Assembly: GCA_013001755.1 (NCBI GenBank)
Contig: JABDLY010000024.1
Coordinates: forward strand, 1-57,621
Direction: 5' to 3'
Origin: Sphingomonadaceae bacterium
GTDB taxonomy: Bacteria > Pseudomonadota > Alphaproteobacteria > Sphingomonadales > Sphingomonadaceae
Length of the DNA: 57,621 bases
The translations under genes were made by a program, and so were the position numbers. Positions within the stretch are counted from its first letter, which is position 1; each line of letters starts with the position of its first letter. Positions 1 to 19,940 of this stretch are shown here, in pieces. The notes beneath the pieces were generated by a model. It was not told the origin of the DNA. It made no database searches and worked only from the letters and a program-made list of their open reading frames with translations.

Positions 1-54
1 TCGGTATCAGTCGTCTGATGCGTTCTACACTAAATTTGAGCTGAGACATGCGCC

Positions 55-68
55 TTGACGCGAATCAA
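55..68. promoter_or_regulatory. FNR/FixK box
   Basis: TTGAC-GCGA-ATCAA vs consensus TTGAT-N4-ATCAA, about 60 nt upstream of usp start, with TGTAAT-like -10 near 88-93. Confidence 0.8.
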
Positions 69-128
69 CTGACCACGTTCAAATCCTTGTAATTCGGTTC
101 TTTGCAAAGGGACCATCTGGAATTGCCG

Positions 129-947
129 ATGAAACAGATTCTCGTACACATGCACCAAGATGCCGGTCAGCGCAGTCGGCTGAACACCGCGGCATCGATT
201 GCCAAAATGACCGACGGGAAGCTCCTCTGCTGCCAGCCGACACATGTCCCGTGGATAGCACTGGAAGGCTATCCATTCATCATTCGGGCCGGATTGTCGG
301 AGAAGGAGGTGTGGGACGCTGCCGGCGAACACTGGCAAGAACATTATGAAGATATGTTGCCAGTTATCCAAAAATTGAACGTTCCCCATAGCTGGCTTCG
401 CGTTAGAGCCAAATCGGCAGAAGCGCTGATTGAGAAAGCTCCATTGGCCGATCTGACAATCGTCAGCCTCGGCCGAAACCCCGTCGACAATATGGATTCC
501 CCGACGTTTGTGGCGGACGTGATATCGGGGGCTGGCGGCCCGGTACTCGCCCTTCCCGAAGCAATCGAGAATTTCGATCCTAACGGCCCTGCCGTAATTG
601 CGTGGGACGGATCGAATGAAGCGGGGAAAGCTTTGCGCGCCAGCCTGCCGCTGCTCAAGCATTCGCGCCACATCCTCGTGCTTTGCATTGGTGAAGTAGA
701 TCGGCGGAGTTACAGCACGCAGGACGCCGCCGAATATCTGGAATTATACGGGCTTTCGGCTGAAGTCCGGGATGTGCCGAAACGTGGTAAAATCGCCAAC
801 CGGCTGCTCGCCATCGCCAAGGCCGAGAAGGCCGCGATGCTGGTTATGGGCGCGTACAGCCATTCGAGAGCGCGAGAGATGGTATTGGGAGGAGAAACCC
901 GGAGGATGCTTGAGCAACGCCAGGTTGCAGTGTTTTTCACGCACTAG
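129..947 (+). CDS. Universal stress protein (tandem UspA domains)
   Basis: MKQILVH start; IAWDGSNEA and LVMGAYSHSRAREMVLGG motifs. Confidence 0.9.
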   Translation: MKQILVHMHQDAGQRSRLNTAASIAKMTDGKLLCCQPTHVPWIALEGYPFIIRAGLSEKEVWDAAGEHWQEHYEDMLPVIQKLNVPHSWLRVRAKSAEALIEKAPLADLTIVSLGRNPVDNMDSPTFVADVISGAGGPVLALPEAIENFDPNGPAVIAWDGSNEAGKALRASLPLLKHSRHILVLCIGEVDRRSYSTQDAAEYLELYGLSAEVRDVPKRGKIANRLLAIAKAEKAAMLVMGAYSHSRAREMVLGGETRRMLEQRQVAVFFTH

Positions 948-1318
948 CTGGATACGAAGAATGTGCTTCCGTATCGGAAAATTCCGGCGGCTATCGCCAT
1001 CGGGTCGCCGTGCCCCAACTTTCCCGGAGTTCGACATCATCCCTCGCATCTCGCGGCGATTCGGCGGAAAGCTGGGAATAGCGCTTCGTTTCTTATGCAC
1101 TCGCCTCCAGTCGTTCTCGAATTGTGAGCGACGATGCTTTTGATGGACGATGCGATGCGGAACTGACTCCGCATTGCATTCGATCGCCGCCATACACCGT
1201 GAAATCTCGATCGAGCCGCCGAGCAATCGGACATCGCCATCTAGGTATTATCCACGACTCCATATCGGTTGGAATCATGTCACCTAAACCGACATGAATT
1301 ATCCTCCGGGAGAACGTC

Positions 1319-1963
1319 ATGTTGCTTGAAAAATCTCGTCAATTCGCGGCTCCGTCAAAATCCCGATGCGAACCTGCATCTTCGCATGCATTGTTGCATT
1401 CGGGTCAAACGCTGTTCTGGGAGGGCGATGATGCAAGCAAGATTTTCAGGATCGAAGCCGGCGCGATACGAGCCGTTATCTATGGCGAAGATGGCGAGCG
1501 CCAGCTCATAGGCTTTTTCATGGGTGGAAACGAAATCGGGATGCCATCGCATGGTTGTTATCAATACACTGCCGAAGCCATCACCGACGTAGTATATAGT
1601 ACGGTGCCCGTTGAATCCTGGTCCGATCGATTGCGGTCCGCCCGTGCACTGGACAAAGAAGTGTTCGGCGCTCTCGAATGCGAACTGGATTCCTGCCGCG
1701 TTCGCAGTCAGCTGTTGTCGAGACAGGGGGCGTTGACCCGCATTTGTGCTTTTCTCTCCGGACTTTGCCAGCGTCTGGGCTCCGATGAAGCTTTCACCGT
1801 ACCCATGCCCCAGATCGACATTGCGGCCTATCTTGCGCTGACGCCTGAGACGGTCTGTCGGGCGATACGGAAGTTAAAGGATATCGGTATGATCGAAATA
1901 GACCGGCATGATCATATTCGAGTGAAAGATGCGCGAGCATTGGTGCCGATGATGACGCATTGA
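1319..1963 (+). CDS. Crp/Fnr family transcriptional regulator, FixK-like
   Basis: LFWEGD...DGERQLIGF cNMP-like domain; HTH DIAAYLALTPETVCR; no N-terminal FNR Cys cluster; GGGAGA SD. Confidence 0.85.
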   Translation: MLLEKSRQFAAPSKSRCEPASSHALLHSGQTLFWEGDDASKIFRIEAGAIRAVIYGEDGERQLIGFFMGGNEIGMPSHGCYQYTAEAITDVVYSTVPVESWSDRLRSARALDKEVFGALECELDSCRVRSQLLSRQGALTRICAFLSGLCQRLGSDEAFTVPMPQIDIAAYLALTPETVCRAIRKLKDIGMIEIDRHDHIRVKDARALVPMMTH

Positions 1964-1985
1964 ACTGGCCGATATTCGGCGGCGC

Positions 1986-17595: not shown

Positions 17596-18408
17596 ATGAA
17601 GTCCGTTTTGCTCCATATCCACCGCGACCATGGCCAGGAGGCACGGTTGCAAGCGGCGCTCGACATCGTGCGCACGTTCGATGGTCATCTGACCTGCCTG
17701 CAGGCGACACCGTTCGAAACCTATATTATCGGCGATCCGTTCGGCGGGGTCTACGCGCTGCCGCAGATGATCGCCGAAATCCGCAAGGGGGAAGAGGCCG
17801 AACGTCGGACGATCGAGGACCGGTTGAAGCGCGAGGGAGTGAGCTGGGACTGGCTTTCCTATGACGGTTCGGCCGCCAAGGTGCTCGCCGATAACAGCTG
17901 GCTGGCGGACCTCGCAATCGTCAGCGTGCTGACGGACAAATCCGAGTCGGGCCGTACGCCGCCGATCGCCGCCGATGTCGTGCTTCATGCGCGTGCGCCG
18001 GTGCTCGTGGTGCCCGACGAAGCCACGGGCTTCGACTGTTCGGCTGGCGCGATGATCGCCTGGAACGGGTCACGCGAATCTTCGCAGGCGCTGCGCGCAG
18101 CGCTGCCTTTGCTGCGGATGGCGGACGCGGTCACGGTGATCTGCGTGGCCGAAGAGCAAAGCAAGGGCTTGCCGCCGACCGCCGCCGCCACCTTTCTCTC
18201 GCGCCACGGCGTTGCCTGCAATCTCGTCGAACAGCCGCGCGAGCACCGATCGGTCGCCGATACGCTGCGCGCCGCGATCTCGGCCGGCGGGCCGGGCTAT
18301 CTGGTGATGGGTGCCTTTGGCCATTCGCGGCTGCGCGAGCGCGTGCTCGGCGGCGTGACCCACGATCTTCTGGCGAACCCACCGAAACCGCTGTTGCTCG
18401 CCCATTGA
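17596..18408 (+). CDS. Universal stress protein, close paralog of 9859-10671
   Basis: Same length and shared MKSVLLHIH...FDGHLTC...GDPFGG. Confidence 0.92.
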   Translation: MKSVLLHIHRDHGQEARLQAALDIVRTFDGHLTCLQATPFETYIIGDPFGGVYALPQMIAEIRKGEEAERRTIEDRLKREGVSWDWLSYDGSAAKVLADNSWLADLAIVSVLTDKSESGRTPPIAADVVLHARAPVLVVPDEATGFDCSAGAMIAWNGSRESSQALRAALPLLRMADAVTVICVAEEQSKGLPPTAAATFLSRHGVACNLVEQPREHRSVADTLRAAISAGGPGYLVMGAFGHSRLRERVLGGVTHDLLANPPKPLLLAH

Positions 18409-18539
18409 AAACGAAGCGTTGTCATGCGTGGATACGGTCATTCTCGACAGCGCGAGTTTATCCTCGGCGGCACAACGCTCGATATGCTCGGCAACAGCCC
18501 TGTGCCCCTGCTGCTCGGTCACTGATCGCGGCGAGGCTC

Positions 18540-18553
18540 CGTAGCATTGCGTA
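18540..18553 (+). promoter_or_regulatory. Island motif copy (candidate FixJ site)
   Basis: CGTA-GCATTG-CGTA upstream of hsp20. Confidence 0.65.
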
Positions 18554-18637
18554 TGGAGATGCGGCGGGCCGGGCCATAATTTCCGCGATACCGGGAATGC
18601 AGGAATTGCACCCGGCCCGTTTGCAAGGAGGTGAAAC

Positions 18638-19153
18638 ATGACAACGAAATCTTCGACCAGCTCCGAACCCATGCTGCCGTCGGCCGATACGGGCGAGGGT
18701 CGCGACCGGCCGCTGGGCTGGTTCCGCGACGAATTCGACCGGTTTGTGGGCGAGCTGCGCCAACCGCATTGGTCGCCTTTCAACTGGTCGCCCGGCAATT
18801 TTGCATTGCAGGGGCTGATGCCGCTGCCGGCGATTGACATGCGCGAGGATGACAAGACCTATCGGCTGAGCGCTGAGCTGCCGGGGCTCGACGAGGAGGA
18901 TATCGAGGTCAACGTCGCCGACGGCATGCTCACCTTGTCGGGCGAGAAGCGCGATGAACGCGACGAGAAGGACAAGGGCTTCATGCTGCGCGAACGGCGC
19001 TACGGCTCGTTCGAACGGCGCGTTACGCTCCCCTCCGATGCCGATCCAGACAATGTGACAGCGAAATTCGATCACGGCGTTCTGACGATTACCGTGGCCA
19101 AGGACGAGAAGGCCGCGGATCGCGTACGTAAGATAGCGATCGAGGCGGGCTGA
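18638..19153 (+). CDS. Hsp20/alpha-crystallin small heat shock protein
   Basis: AELPG...[10 protein letters not shown]...[14 protein letters not shown]...[22 protein letters not shown]. Confidence 0.93.
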
Positions 19154-19740
19154 TCGCCGGCACGGCCCCGGCTCCTCGCGACCCAGCCGAGGGCCAGGCC
19201 GCGACCATTGCCTTTCTCGAAAGCGGCGATGCGTTCGGGTGTTCGCTCCCACCCGGACGCATCGACACGCATGCAGCGAGCGTGTTTCTCGCCGGCGATA
19301 CGGCCTGGAAGCTCAAGCGTGCGGTAAATCTGGGATATCTCGATTTTTCGACGCCCGAAAAACGCCGCGCGGCGCTCGAAACCGAGCTGCAGCTGAATCG
19401 GCGCACGGCACTCGGCCTCTACCGTGCGGTCCGCCCAATCAATCGTGACACGACCGGCGCTCTCTCGATCGGCGAACCCGGCGAGCCGGTCGACTGGCTG
19501 CTCGAAATGGTACGCTTTCCCGATGGAGCGACGCTCGAGGCGGTCGCCGCGGCCGAAGTGTACGACAAAGACTATTTCGCGAGGCTCGTCCGCCTAGGAT
19601 ATCTTGCGCCGGACATCACTACCGCCATATTGGATGGGCGTCAGCCGGCAACGCTGACCCGCATCCGCCTGGCGAGGATGTCGAAATTGCCGCTCGACTG
19701 GGCGGAGCAGCGGCGGCTGCTCGGGTTCGAAGCCTCTTAA
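19150..19740 (+). pseudogene. Chimera: N-terminus of APH/AAA bifunctional kinase fused to recombinase-type C-terminal tail
   Basis: [31 protein letters not shown]...E..LNRR then [25 protein letters not shown]...[14 protein letters not shown]; junction about 19545. Confidence 0.75.
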
Positions 19741-19940
19741 ATCCGCAACCCCTAAACTAGCATCGCAGGACCGGCTGAATGGTCTCTCCAGAGATCCGCG
19801 CAAATTTTGCGACAGGCTCCTGACGAACGGTCTCTTGGTCAGGCAGCCGCATTCTCGAGGACCCGTAAGCTACCGACATTGCGCGACTTATTGACGGGTC
19901 TGAGACGGAAGCCCAACTCTTTGCGGATTCGGGAAAAGAA

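What the first reader, a model, noticed from the sequence alone, without database searches (positions are those of the whole stretch)
1..19940. Mobile FixLJ-controlled 'dormancy regulon' island resembling the mycobacterial DosR gene set
Seen: fixL-fixJ, a second fixJ, a FixK-like regulator, five USPs, Hsp20, an APH/AAA kinase fragment, fermentative LDH and ADH, DUF2267 and two L,D-transpeptidases, all beside a tRNA. No cbb3 oxidase (fixNOQP) genes are in view. Established: FixL senses O2 through heme-PAS, and the M. tuberculosis DosR regulon includes several USPs, alpha-crystallin HspX and the Rv2004c-type kinase. Inference: a horizontally mobile hypoxia-survival cassette rather than the classic respiratory fix cluster.
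Basis: partly seen in the sequence, partly recalled or inferred. Interest (0 to 1): 0.75.

Follow-up and report, generated by a model that had tools for sequence, protein, structure and literature searches.

The report
Decayed low-oxygen island with FixJ boxes
This marine bacterium carries, beside a tRNA gene, a partly decayed patchwork of known low-oxygen stress genes whose promoters share a repeated DNA signal, which likely lets the oxygen-sensing regulator FixJ switch them on directly rather than through the usual middle regulator FixK.

Summary
The genes are there, in a Parasphingopyxis-like sphingomonad. The region is accessory: none of 16 congener tRNA-Phe flanks shares its order. But it is not one intact mobile cassette. 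It has two layers (about 56% and 63% GC). The 'kinase fragment' is a deletion chimera ending in the tail of the island's lost serine recombinase. ADH, an ABC ATPase and a cytochrome b are broken, and the left end is a contig edge. The gene set is not new. It matches the predicted alphaproteobacterial FixK regulon, the Burkholderia lxa locus (already likened to DosR in print) and the soft core of a Sphingopyxis ICE. What is new is the wiring. A 16-bp imperfect palindrome (TCCGTA-N4-TsCGTA), resembling the rhizobial FixJ site, precedes most promoters. Five of the genome's six best hits lie here. The motif re-emerges unseeded from held-out sphingomonad fixJ loci, and it marks a canonical fixK promoter. 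Published FixJ regulons are little more than fixK and nifA. Sphingomonad FixJ therefore likely drives USPs, Hsp20 and others directly, as DosR does. No binding or expression data were available.

The parts
55..68 (.). Perfect FNR/FixK-type box (TTGA-N6-TCAA) upstream of USP1; the only perfect one in the region
129..947 (+). USP1
   Evidence: PF00582
1242..1257 (+). Weak FixJ-like box 77 bp before the Crp gene
   Evidence: score 10.1
1319..1963 (+). Crp-family FixK-like regulator without the N-terminal FNR cysteine cluster
   Evidence: best NCBIfam hit FixK, below cut-off
2402..3286 (-). L,D-transpeptidase (YkuD)
3321..3337 (.). FixJ-like box between the divergent transpeptidase and USP2
   Evidence: de novo motif score 14.4; G008 also has a box upstream of USP2
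3404..4210 (+). USP2
4349..5038 (+). Cytochrome b561 pseudogene, in-frame TAG at 4544
5153..5168 (.). FixJ-like box before the YkuD_2 gene
   Evidence: 15.1; 17.9
5228..5836 (+). L,D-transpeptidase (YkuD_2)
5862..5877 (+). FixJ-like box 86 bp before SpoIIAA-like gene; top genome-wide hit; conserved in G008
   Evidence: 21.3
5948..6727 (+). SpoIIAA-like (STAS/SEC14) protein
6932..8101 (+). FixL: single PAS plus kinase; His80 and Arg100 align with solved FixL heme domains; Ala86 where wild-type B. japonicum FixL has Arg
8088..8723 (+). FixJ1
   Evidence: NF006900 253.7 bits against cut-off 255
8805..9146 (-). Hypothetical protein, box at 9205-9220
9324..9689 (-). Unnamed 121-aa protein linked to fixL across sphingomonads; box at 9749-9764
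9773..9788 (+). FixJ-like box 86 bp before USP3
   Evidence: 19.0
9859..10671 (+). USP3
10704..11534 (+). USP4 (two Usp domains)
12127..12660 (-). VTT-domain membrane protein (weak hit); last whole gene of the low-GC layer
12766..13797 (-). D-2-hydroxyacid (D-lactate-type) dehydrogenase; expected start reads GTC; GC step near 12.8-13.0 kb
13855..14463 (-). CC0125/CC1285 family lipoprotein
   Evidence: NF047637
14634..15059 (+). DUF2267; weak box at 14526-14541
15116..15253 (+). 5' remnant of an ABC-transporter ATPase, left side of a deletion scar
   Evidence: 87% nt match to L011:1330-1396
15232..15669 (-). Zinc ADH, N-terminal part only
15711..16331 (-). GNAT protein; box at 16388-16403
16694..17320 (+). 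FixJ2, with no kinase gene beside it
17507..17522 (+). FixJ-like box 89 bp before USP5
   Evidence: 19.0
17596..18408 (+). USP5
18538..18553 (+). FixJ-like box 100 bp before Hsp20; top genome-wide hit of the de novo motif
   Evidence: 17.9; 22.6
18638..19153 (+). Hsp20
19159..19545 (+). N-terminal remnant of an APH/AAA_33 kinase-like protein
   Evidence: up to 73% identity to ~515-aa proteins
19546..19740 (+). C-terminal remnant of a large serine recombinase, in frame with the kinase remnant
   Evidence: 93% aa over 68 residues to the recombinase tail beside tRNA-Phe in G014
19941..20016 (-). tRNA-Phe(GAA), 3' end facing the island

Best explanation
The region is a partly decayed, two-layer accessory island at tRNA-Phe holding known low-oxygen stress genes, and its FixL-FixJ pair likely activates most of them directly through a FixJ-type box found at their promoters. 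Inferred mechanism: when O2 falls, heme-PAS FixL phosphorylates FixJ1, and probably also FixJ2, which has no kinase gene beside it. FixJ~P would bind TCCGTA-N4-TsCGTA about 50-110 bp upstream of USP2, USP3/4, USP5, Hsp20, the SpoIIAA-like gene (possibly continuing into fixLJ), GNAT, the transpeptidases and two hypothetical genes. Through a weaker box it would also induce the FixK-like gene, whose product would serve the single FNR-type box at USP1. The products would protect non-growing cells (USPs, chaperone, wall cross-linking) during hypoxic spells in sand. Inferred history: a serine-recombinase element at tRNA-Phe carried a host-like layer. A low-GC fixLJ layer was added. Deletions then removed the recombinase, most of the kinase, and an ADH-to-ABC block, so the island is predicted to be unable to excise itself.
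For: Genes.

Accessory status: none of 16 congener tRNA-Phe flanks has this gene order; 4 of 16 carry USP-type cargo there and 1 carries a DUF3489-DUF2924-recombinase module. A close FixL (78%) was found in only 1 of 17 congeners. The left layer is in about the lowest 1% for GC and the top 1.5% for tetranucleotide deviation among 281 genome windows.

Scars: contigs from public runs bridge the GC step and both deletion junctions (X1 11568-17118 with 11 differences; X2 14840-15340; X3 19379-20000).

Motif: a matrix trained on 5 sites from other genomes puts 5 of its 6 best G000 hits here (9 hits >=13 against 0.37 expected), and 0 of 200 shuffles reach the count. Held-out fixJ regions gave 11 hits in 9 of 20 regions, against 0 in 19 control regions. 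Unseeded EM on 49 held-out upstream regions recovers the motif (log-likelihood 170 against 73-79 in 4 shuffles) and gives 11 strand-hits >=14 here against 0.22 expected. In a canonical Sphingobium fixLJ-crp-ccoNOQP cluster the only hit in 31 kb is the promoter of the Crp/Fnr gene. The motif resembles the S. meliloti FixJ site quoted in PMC4999443.
Against: There are no binding, expression or phenotype data. The motif is tied to fixJ by linkage and resemblance only. The seed pattern of the first matrix was chosen after seeing the window's sites, although removes that bias. With fixL upstream regions included and width 16, the de novo matrix enriched the region only about 3-fold at scores >=10 and >=12, and 2 hits against 0.28 at >=14. 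With the first matrix, 11 of 20 held-out loci and 20 of 50 further FixL loci had no hit >=15. Two of the nine distinct strong de novo sites lie inside coding sequence, and other strong hits lie elsewhere in G000. FixL scores below the NCBIfam FixL cut-off (461 against 850; the match covers model positions 121-482 of 485) and has Ala at a position that is Arg in 46 of 79 relatives. X1 may be the source sample of the assembly. Several cargo genes are broken, so part of the regulon may be decaying. The left boundary is not visible.
Confidence: 0.68

Rival explanations
1. Classical cascade: FixJ activates only the FixK-like gene, and FixK or the host FnrN runs the cargo through FNR-type boxes. The repeated motif would belong to another factor or be a relic.
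For: Published FixJ regulons are tiny (PMC4999443), and this gene set is the predicted FixK regulon (PMC2908626). A FixK-like gene is in the region and an FnrN-like gene with N-terminal cysteines is on C77. Congener clusters with a divergent FixL (36-40%) use FNR boxes: 5 perfect boxes in L009, 3 in L086.
Against: The 19.9 kb hold only one perfect and one near-perfect FNR box, and the whole assembly holds 6 perfect ones. None precedes USP2-5, Hsp20 or SpoIIAA. Among 29 USP upstream regions, 7 had the FixJ-type seed, 10 an FNR-type box and none both.
Confidence: 0.17
2. An intact, currently mobile dormancy cassette acquired as one unit.
For: It sits at a tRNA 3' end. Similar clusters lie on conjugative plasmids and in a Sphingopyxis ICE. 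An intact mobility module could lie beyond the contig edge.
Against: The recombinase is reduced to about 65 aa, and no PF07508 match was found in the assembly. No duplicated tRNA-Phe 3' end was found. There are two compositional layers and no close colinear copy of the right layer in 300 family genomes.
Confidence: 0.08
3. The right layer (13-19.9 kb) is old genus-level DNA reshuffled in place, and only the low-GC fixLJ layer was transferred.
For: The right layer is host-like in GC and tetranucleotides. DUF2267 is 90% identical to a gene in G011's tRNA-Phe flank.
Against: It ends in a recombinase remnant 88% identical at nucleotide level to a mobile module in G014, and most congener flanks lack its genes. 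This reading is compatible with the regulatory claim.
Confidence: 0.2

Closest known systems
Predicted alphaproteobacterial FixK regulon (PMC2908626; passages and Table 1 text seen)
   Same: Lists FixJ, FixL, Hsp20, ABC ATPase and permease, HlyD, a kinase and a zinc ADH; UspA is listed under FNR. This is much of the gene inventory here, including the ABC remnant.
   Different: There the targets are predicted from FNR-type boxes. Here they carry FixJ-type boxes, and there are five USPs.
FixJ regulons of Rhizobiales and Caulobacterales (PMC4999443; passages seen)
   Same: FixL/FixJ pair, an imperfect palindromic site of similar length and sequence, a box before the fixK-like gene.
   Different: Targets reported there are fixK, nifA, fixX and SMc03253 only, and fixLJ was reported for Rhizobiales and Caulobacterales, not the sphingomonads sampled. 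Here about ten promoters have the box.
Burkholderia cenocepacia lxa locus (PMC3721108; passages seen)
   Same: A low-oxygen cluster with six USPs, alpha-crystallin and alcohol-turnover genes, explicitly compared with DosR and needed for anoxic survival.
   Different: lxa has a TGA-N6-TCA (Anr/Fnr-like) motif, has host-like GC, was not predicted as an island, and is about 50 kb.
Sphingopyxis granuli ICE3 (bioRxiv 10.64898/2025.12.11.693706; abstract, introduction and passages seen)
   Same: A sphingomonad tRNA-integrated element with USPs in the core and fixL/fixJ, aph and hspC2 in the soft core.
   Different: ICE3 has 213 genes and complete transfer machinery. The passages seen describe no FixJ sites and no hypoxia regulon.
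Mycobacterium tuberculosis DosR regulon
   Same: Works alike in outline: a heme sensor kinase, a LuxR-type regulator binding many promoters directly, USPs and a small heat-shock protein (sensor and binding details recalled; USP and alpha-crystallin membership; Rv2004c membership seen only in a reference title).
   Different: The sensor is PAS rather than GAF (DosS/DosT, recalled), the DNA site differs, orthology was not tested, and the kinase here is a remnant.

Membership tests
FixL/FixJ oxygen sensor | Heme-PAS domain with the conserved heme His and distal Arg | tested here: met
   E 4e-44 to solved FixL PAS domains; His80 and Arg100 align; their roles are recalled
FixL/FixJ oxygen sensor | HisKA/HATPase kinase next to a REC-LuxR regulator | tested here: met
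FixL/FixJ oxygen sensor | NCBIfam equivalog cut-offs | tested here: inconclusive
   Best hits but under cut-off: FixL 461/850, FixJ1 253.7/255, FixJ2 240/255
FixL/FixJ oxygen sensor | O2-inhibited kinase activity | not testable with these tools
   Needs biochemistry; Ala86 is a caveat
Classical FixLJ-FixK cascade | FixK-like Crp protein without the Fe-S cysteine cluster, with a FixJ site upstream | tested here: met
   weak box at 1242
Classical FixLJ-FixK cascade | Targets carry TTGA-N6-TCAA boxes | tested here: not met
   One perfect promoter box, at USP1 only
Classical fix respiratory cluster | ccoNOQP linked | tested here: inconclusive
   No ccoN in the 90.5% complete assembly, but the contig ends, and G008's syntenic module has ccoN
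tRNA-integrated genomic island | Variable content at a tRNA 3' end, absent from relatives | tested here: met
tRNA-integrated genomic island | Intact integrase or recombinase | tested here: not met
   Only the C-terminal remnant
tRNA-integrated genomic island | Direct repeat of the tRNA 3' end | tested here: inconclusive
   None in the assembly; the left end is unassembled
ICE | Relaxase and type IV secretion genes | not tested
   None among the region's genes; the rest of the genome was not searched
DosR regulon | DosS/DosT GAF-heme sensor and DosR orthologue | tested here: not met
   The sensor is PAS-type FixL, with no GAF hit
DosR regulon | Co-induction by hypoxia and need for non-replicating survival | not testable with these tools
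   No expression or phenotype data

The most novel reading that the evidence does not exclude
Sphingomonads have flattened the FixLJ-FixK cascade. FixJ itself is a many-target master regulator of a survival regulon (USPs, Hsp20, wall enzymes, an unnamed beta-barrel protein, and in G008 even ccoN). This converges on DosR in wiring as well as gene content. The same cargo genes swap between FixJ boxes and FNR boxes as they move through tRNA hotspots and plasmids.
Probability: 0.6. Interest if true: 0.6.

Novelty: new variant of a known kind. Interest (0 to 1): 0.42.

Why it matters
The FixJ consensus has been hard to define because few direct targets are known (PMC4999443). Dozens of aligned candidate sites in sphingomonads give a testable motif and a natural comparison of direct versus cascade control over the same genes. 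The island itself is a modest finding: a known kind of cargo, probably immobilised. It would help explain how aerobic sand bacteria outlast oxygen dips, if induction is shown.

Tried and rejected
- Search for a duplicated tRNA-Phe 3' end: only T-loop-sized matches, most at other tRNA genes.
- A 16-bp spaced FNR pattern: chance level.
- Assembly chimera at the GC step: rejected by bridging contigs.
- Extending the contig leftwards: no loose ends were listed.
- No RNA holder was listed. X1 gave no cover of 1-11.4 kb, with about 60% of the run read; this is no evidence either way.
- Fold of the 121-aa protein: best Z 7.2 among assorted beta-barrels, no Foldseek match at E<=0.001, and the Atlas gave only unnamed clusters; inconclusive.
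- TauE identity of the fragment at 11900-12070: weak, E 0.009.
- A six-frame search of four small gaps returned nothing.
- Earlier findings of this scan: none returned.
- The Bradyrhizobium FixLJ-FixK2 regulon paper and a recalled FixL mutant paper are not held, so their content was not seen.
- Ten literature searches returned no description of a multi-target FixJ regulon in sphingomonads. The library lacks most subscription papers, and no supplements were read. Supplementary site tables of PMC4999443 and of the ICE preprint could bear on novelty.
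Full report
Setting. The window is the whole of contig C146 of a 2.49-Mb, 244-contig assembly that is 90.5% complete, so position 1 is a contig edge. The best named relatives of a flanking protein (22648-23772) are Parasphingopyxis, at about 70% identity. Near-identical DNA occurs in beach-sand and marine-sediment metagenomes.

Observation. Pfam on 30 ORFs and NCBIfam on 17 confirm the listed genes. FixL aligns with solved FixL heme-PAS domains at E 4e-44, keeping His80 and Arg100 (their roles are recalled). 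Residue 86 is Ala where wild-type B. japonicum FixL has Arg. That position is Arg in 46 and Ala in 3 of 79 relatives. The Crp protein lacks the N-terminal cysteine cluster seen in the FnrN-like protein on C77. No ccoN was found in G000, while 12 of 17 congeners match. A cytochrome bd subunit I is present.

Two layers. GC is 55.8% up to about 12.8-13.0 kb and 63% from there to the tRNA, against 62% for the genome. The left layer is extreme in GC and tetranucleotides among 281 genome windows, and the right layer is ordinary. A 5,551-bp contig from run X1 spans the step with 11 differences (X1 may be the source sample). Each layer has its own fixJ (66% identical) and USPs. Congener G008 holds the left module in similar order (FixL 78%), with ccoN where the window has the Crp gene and USP1.

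Decay. The ORF at 19159-19740 begins as an APH/AAA_33 protein (up to 73% identity to ~515-aa proteins). Near 19546 it switches to a tail 93% identical to the end of a large serine recombinase. That recombinase sits, with DUF3489 and DUF2924, against tRNA-Phe in G014, where it is itself frameshifted. So one deletion removed most of the kinase and most of the recombinase. A second deletion left the first ~145 codons of ADH head-on to the first ~46 codons of an ABC ATPase. Contigs of X3 and X2 bridge these junctions without differences. The cytochrome b561 has a TAG at 4544, and the LDH start reads GTC. No PF07508 recombinase and no duplicated tRNA end were found in the assembly.

Hotspot. I fetched the tRNA-Phe flank of 16 of 17 congeners (two are under 3 kb). 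I compared them with 27 window proteins and scanned 109 of 214 called ORFs. None shares the window's order. Four carry related cargo: G002 (Hsp20, fixL, fixJ, crp, ADH, DUF2267, both transpeptidases, USP), G010 (ABC, HlyD, CBS, APH-AAA, pta, ackA, USP), G011 (DUF2267, two USPs) and G013 (one USP). The rest carry unrelated genes. A FixJ of this type was found in 67 of 250 family genomes, and FixL relatives in 186 plasmid records. One conjugative Sphingopyxis plasmid has fixLJ with USPs, Hsp20, APH-AAA, ADH, GNAT, a STAS protein and a hydroxyacid dehydrogenase. Of 50 non-duplicate FixL loci of 15 kb or more (from 80 fetched), 10 have ccoN, and 25 of the other 40 have a USP or Hsp20. FixLJ without cbb3 is therefore common in this family.

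Wiring. The intergenic sequences repeat TCCGTA-N4-TsCGTA, which resembles the S. meliloti FixJ site TAAGTAATTTCCCTTA quoted in PMC4999443. Five tests followed.
(a) Among 29 upstream regions of USP5 homologues in other genomes, 7 had the seed pattern 73-96 bp before the gene (0.7% in shuffles), 10 had an FNR-type box and none had both.
(b) A matrix from 5 of those sites (two near-duplicates dropped) put 5 of its 6 best G000 hits in the region, with 9 hits >=13 against 0.37 expected. No shuffle of 200 reached the count in either layer.
(c) Positive control: in a Sphingobium fixLJ-crp-ccoNOQP cluster, the only hit >=14 in 31 kb is the Crp/Fnr promoter.
(d) Held-out test: 11 hits >=15 in 9 of 20 fixJ-centred regions, against 0 in 19 control regions of the same genomes. 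A further 51 hits fell in 30 of 50 FixL loci.
(e) Because the seed was chosen after seeing the window, I ran unseeded EM on 49 target upstream regions from the 20 held-out loci. It returned the same motif (log-likelihood 170 against 73-79 for 4 shuffles) and gave 11 strand-hits, or 9 distinct sites of which 7 are intergenic, against 0.22 expected. An earlier run that included fixL upstream regions gave the same motif family but weaker enrichment (16 against 5.6 at >=10).
By contrast, the region has one perfect FNR box, and congener clusters with a divergent FixL use FNR boxes before similar genes. G008 has a strong box about 100 bp before ccoN.

Mechanism. Shown: the genes, the lesions, the variable site, and the motif with its link to fixJ loci. 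Inferred: that FixL senses O2, that FixJ binds the motif and activates, that FixJ2 is fed by the same FixL, that the products aid survival, and that the island can no longer excise.

Comparison. The gene inventory matches the predicted FixK regulon. The DosR parallel was already drawn for lxa. A sphingomonad ICE with USPs, fixL/fixJ, aph and hspC2 is described, and plasmid-borne, horizontally acquired FixLJ has been noted in Sphingobium (PMC6783567, passages). In S. granuli the anaerobic switch runs through cysteine-bearing Fnr proteins (PMC7713065, passages). It works like DosR in outline but is not a member. The multi-promoter FixJ box was not found in ten literature searches, with the limits stated under Tried and rejected.

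Verdict. This is a real, accessory, partly decayed low-oxygen gene island of a known kind, with a probably undescribed regulatory variant. Interest 0.42.

Noticed in passing
window 9324-9689 (-): An unnamed 121-aa protein with no Pfam family. It lies within 2 kb of fixL in 43 of 73 non-duplicate FixL loci, has a box upstream in 6 of 6 held-out cases, and models as a mostly-beta, barrel-like fold (pLDDT 88). Not found in 17 congeners.
   Followed up: partly
L082:2183-2198 (G008): A strong FixJ-like box (22.2) about 100 bp before ccoN, suggesting direct FixJ control of cbb3 oxidase in a congener.
   Followed up: partly
L001:318-2691 (G014): A DUF3489-DUF2924-serine recombinase module against tRNA-Phe; the recombinase is frameshifted.
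   Followed up: partly
L023-L028: A second, divergent FixL-FixJ-Crp type (FixL 36-40% identical) in six congeners, preceded by FNR boxes; it keeps the heme-PAS His motif in the four aligned.
   Followed up: partly
L107 and L052: fixLJ or USP genes lie near yacG in two other genera, hinting that the tRNA-Phe/yacG site recurrently hosts this cargo.
   Followed up: no
window 7187-7189: FixL codon 86 is Ala; PDB entry 2cmn has Ala at the same position (recalled as the R206A mutant; paper not held).
   Followed up: partly
G000 C140:510, C202:25305, C77:1939, C65:3216; window 34816: Strong hits to the FixJ-like motif outside the island, possibly host genes recruited into the regulon.
   Followed up: no
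window 11535-12126: The most AT-rich stretch (about 47% GC), with a 105-aa ORF of no family and a weak TauE-like fragment; a variant form with 5 differences in 124 bases appears in run X1.
   Followed up: partly
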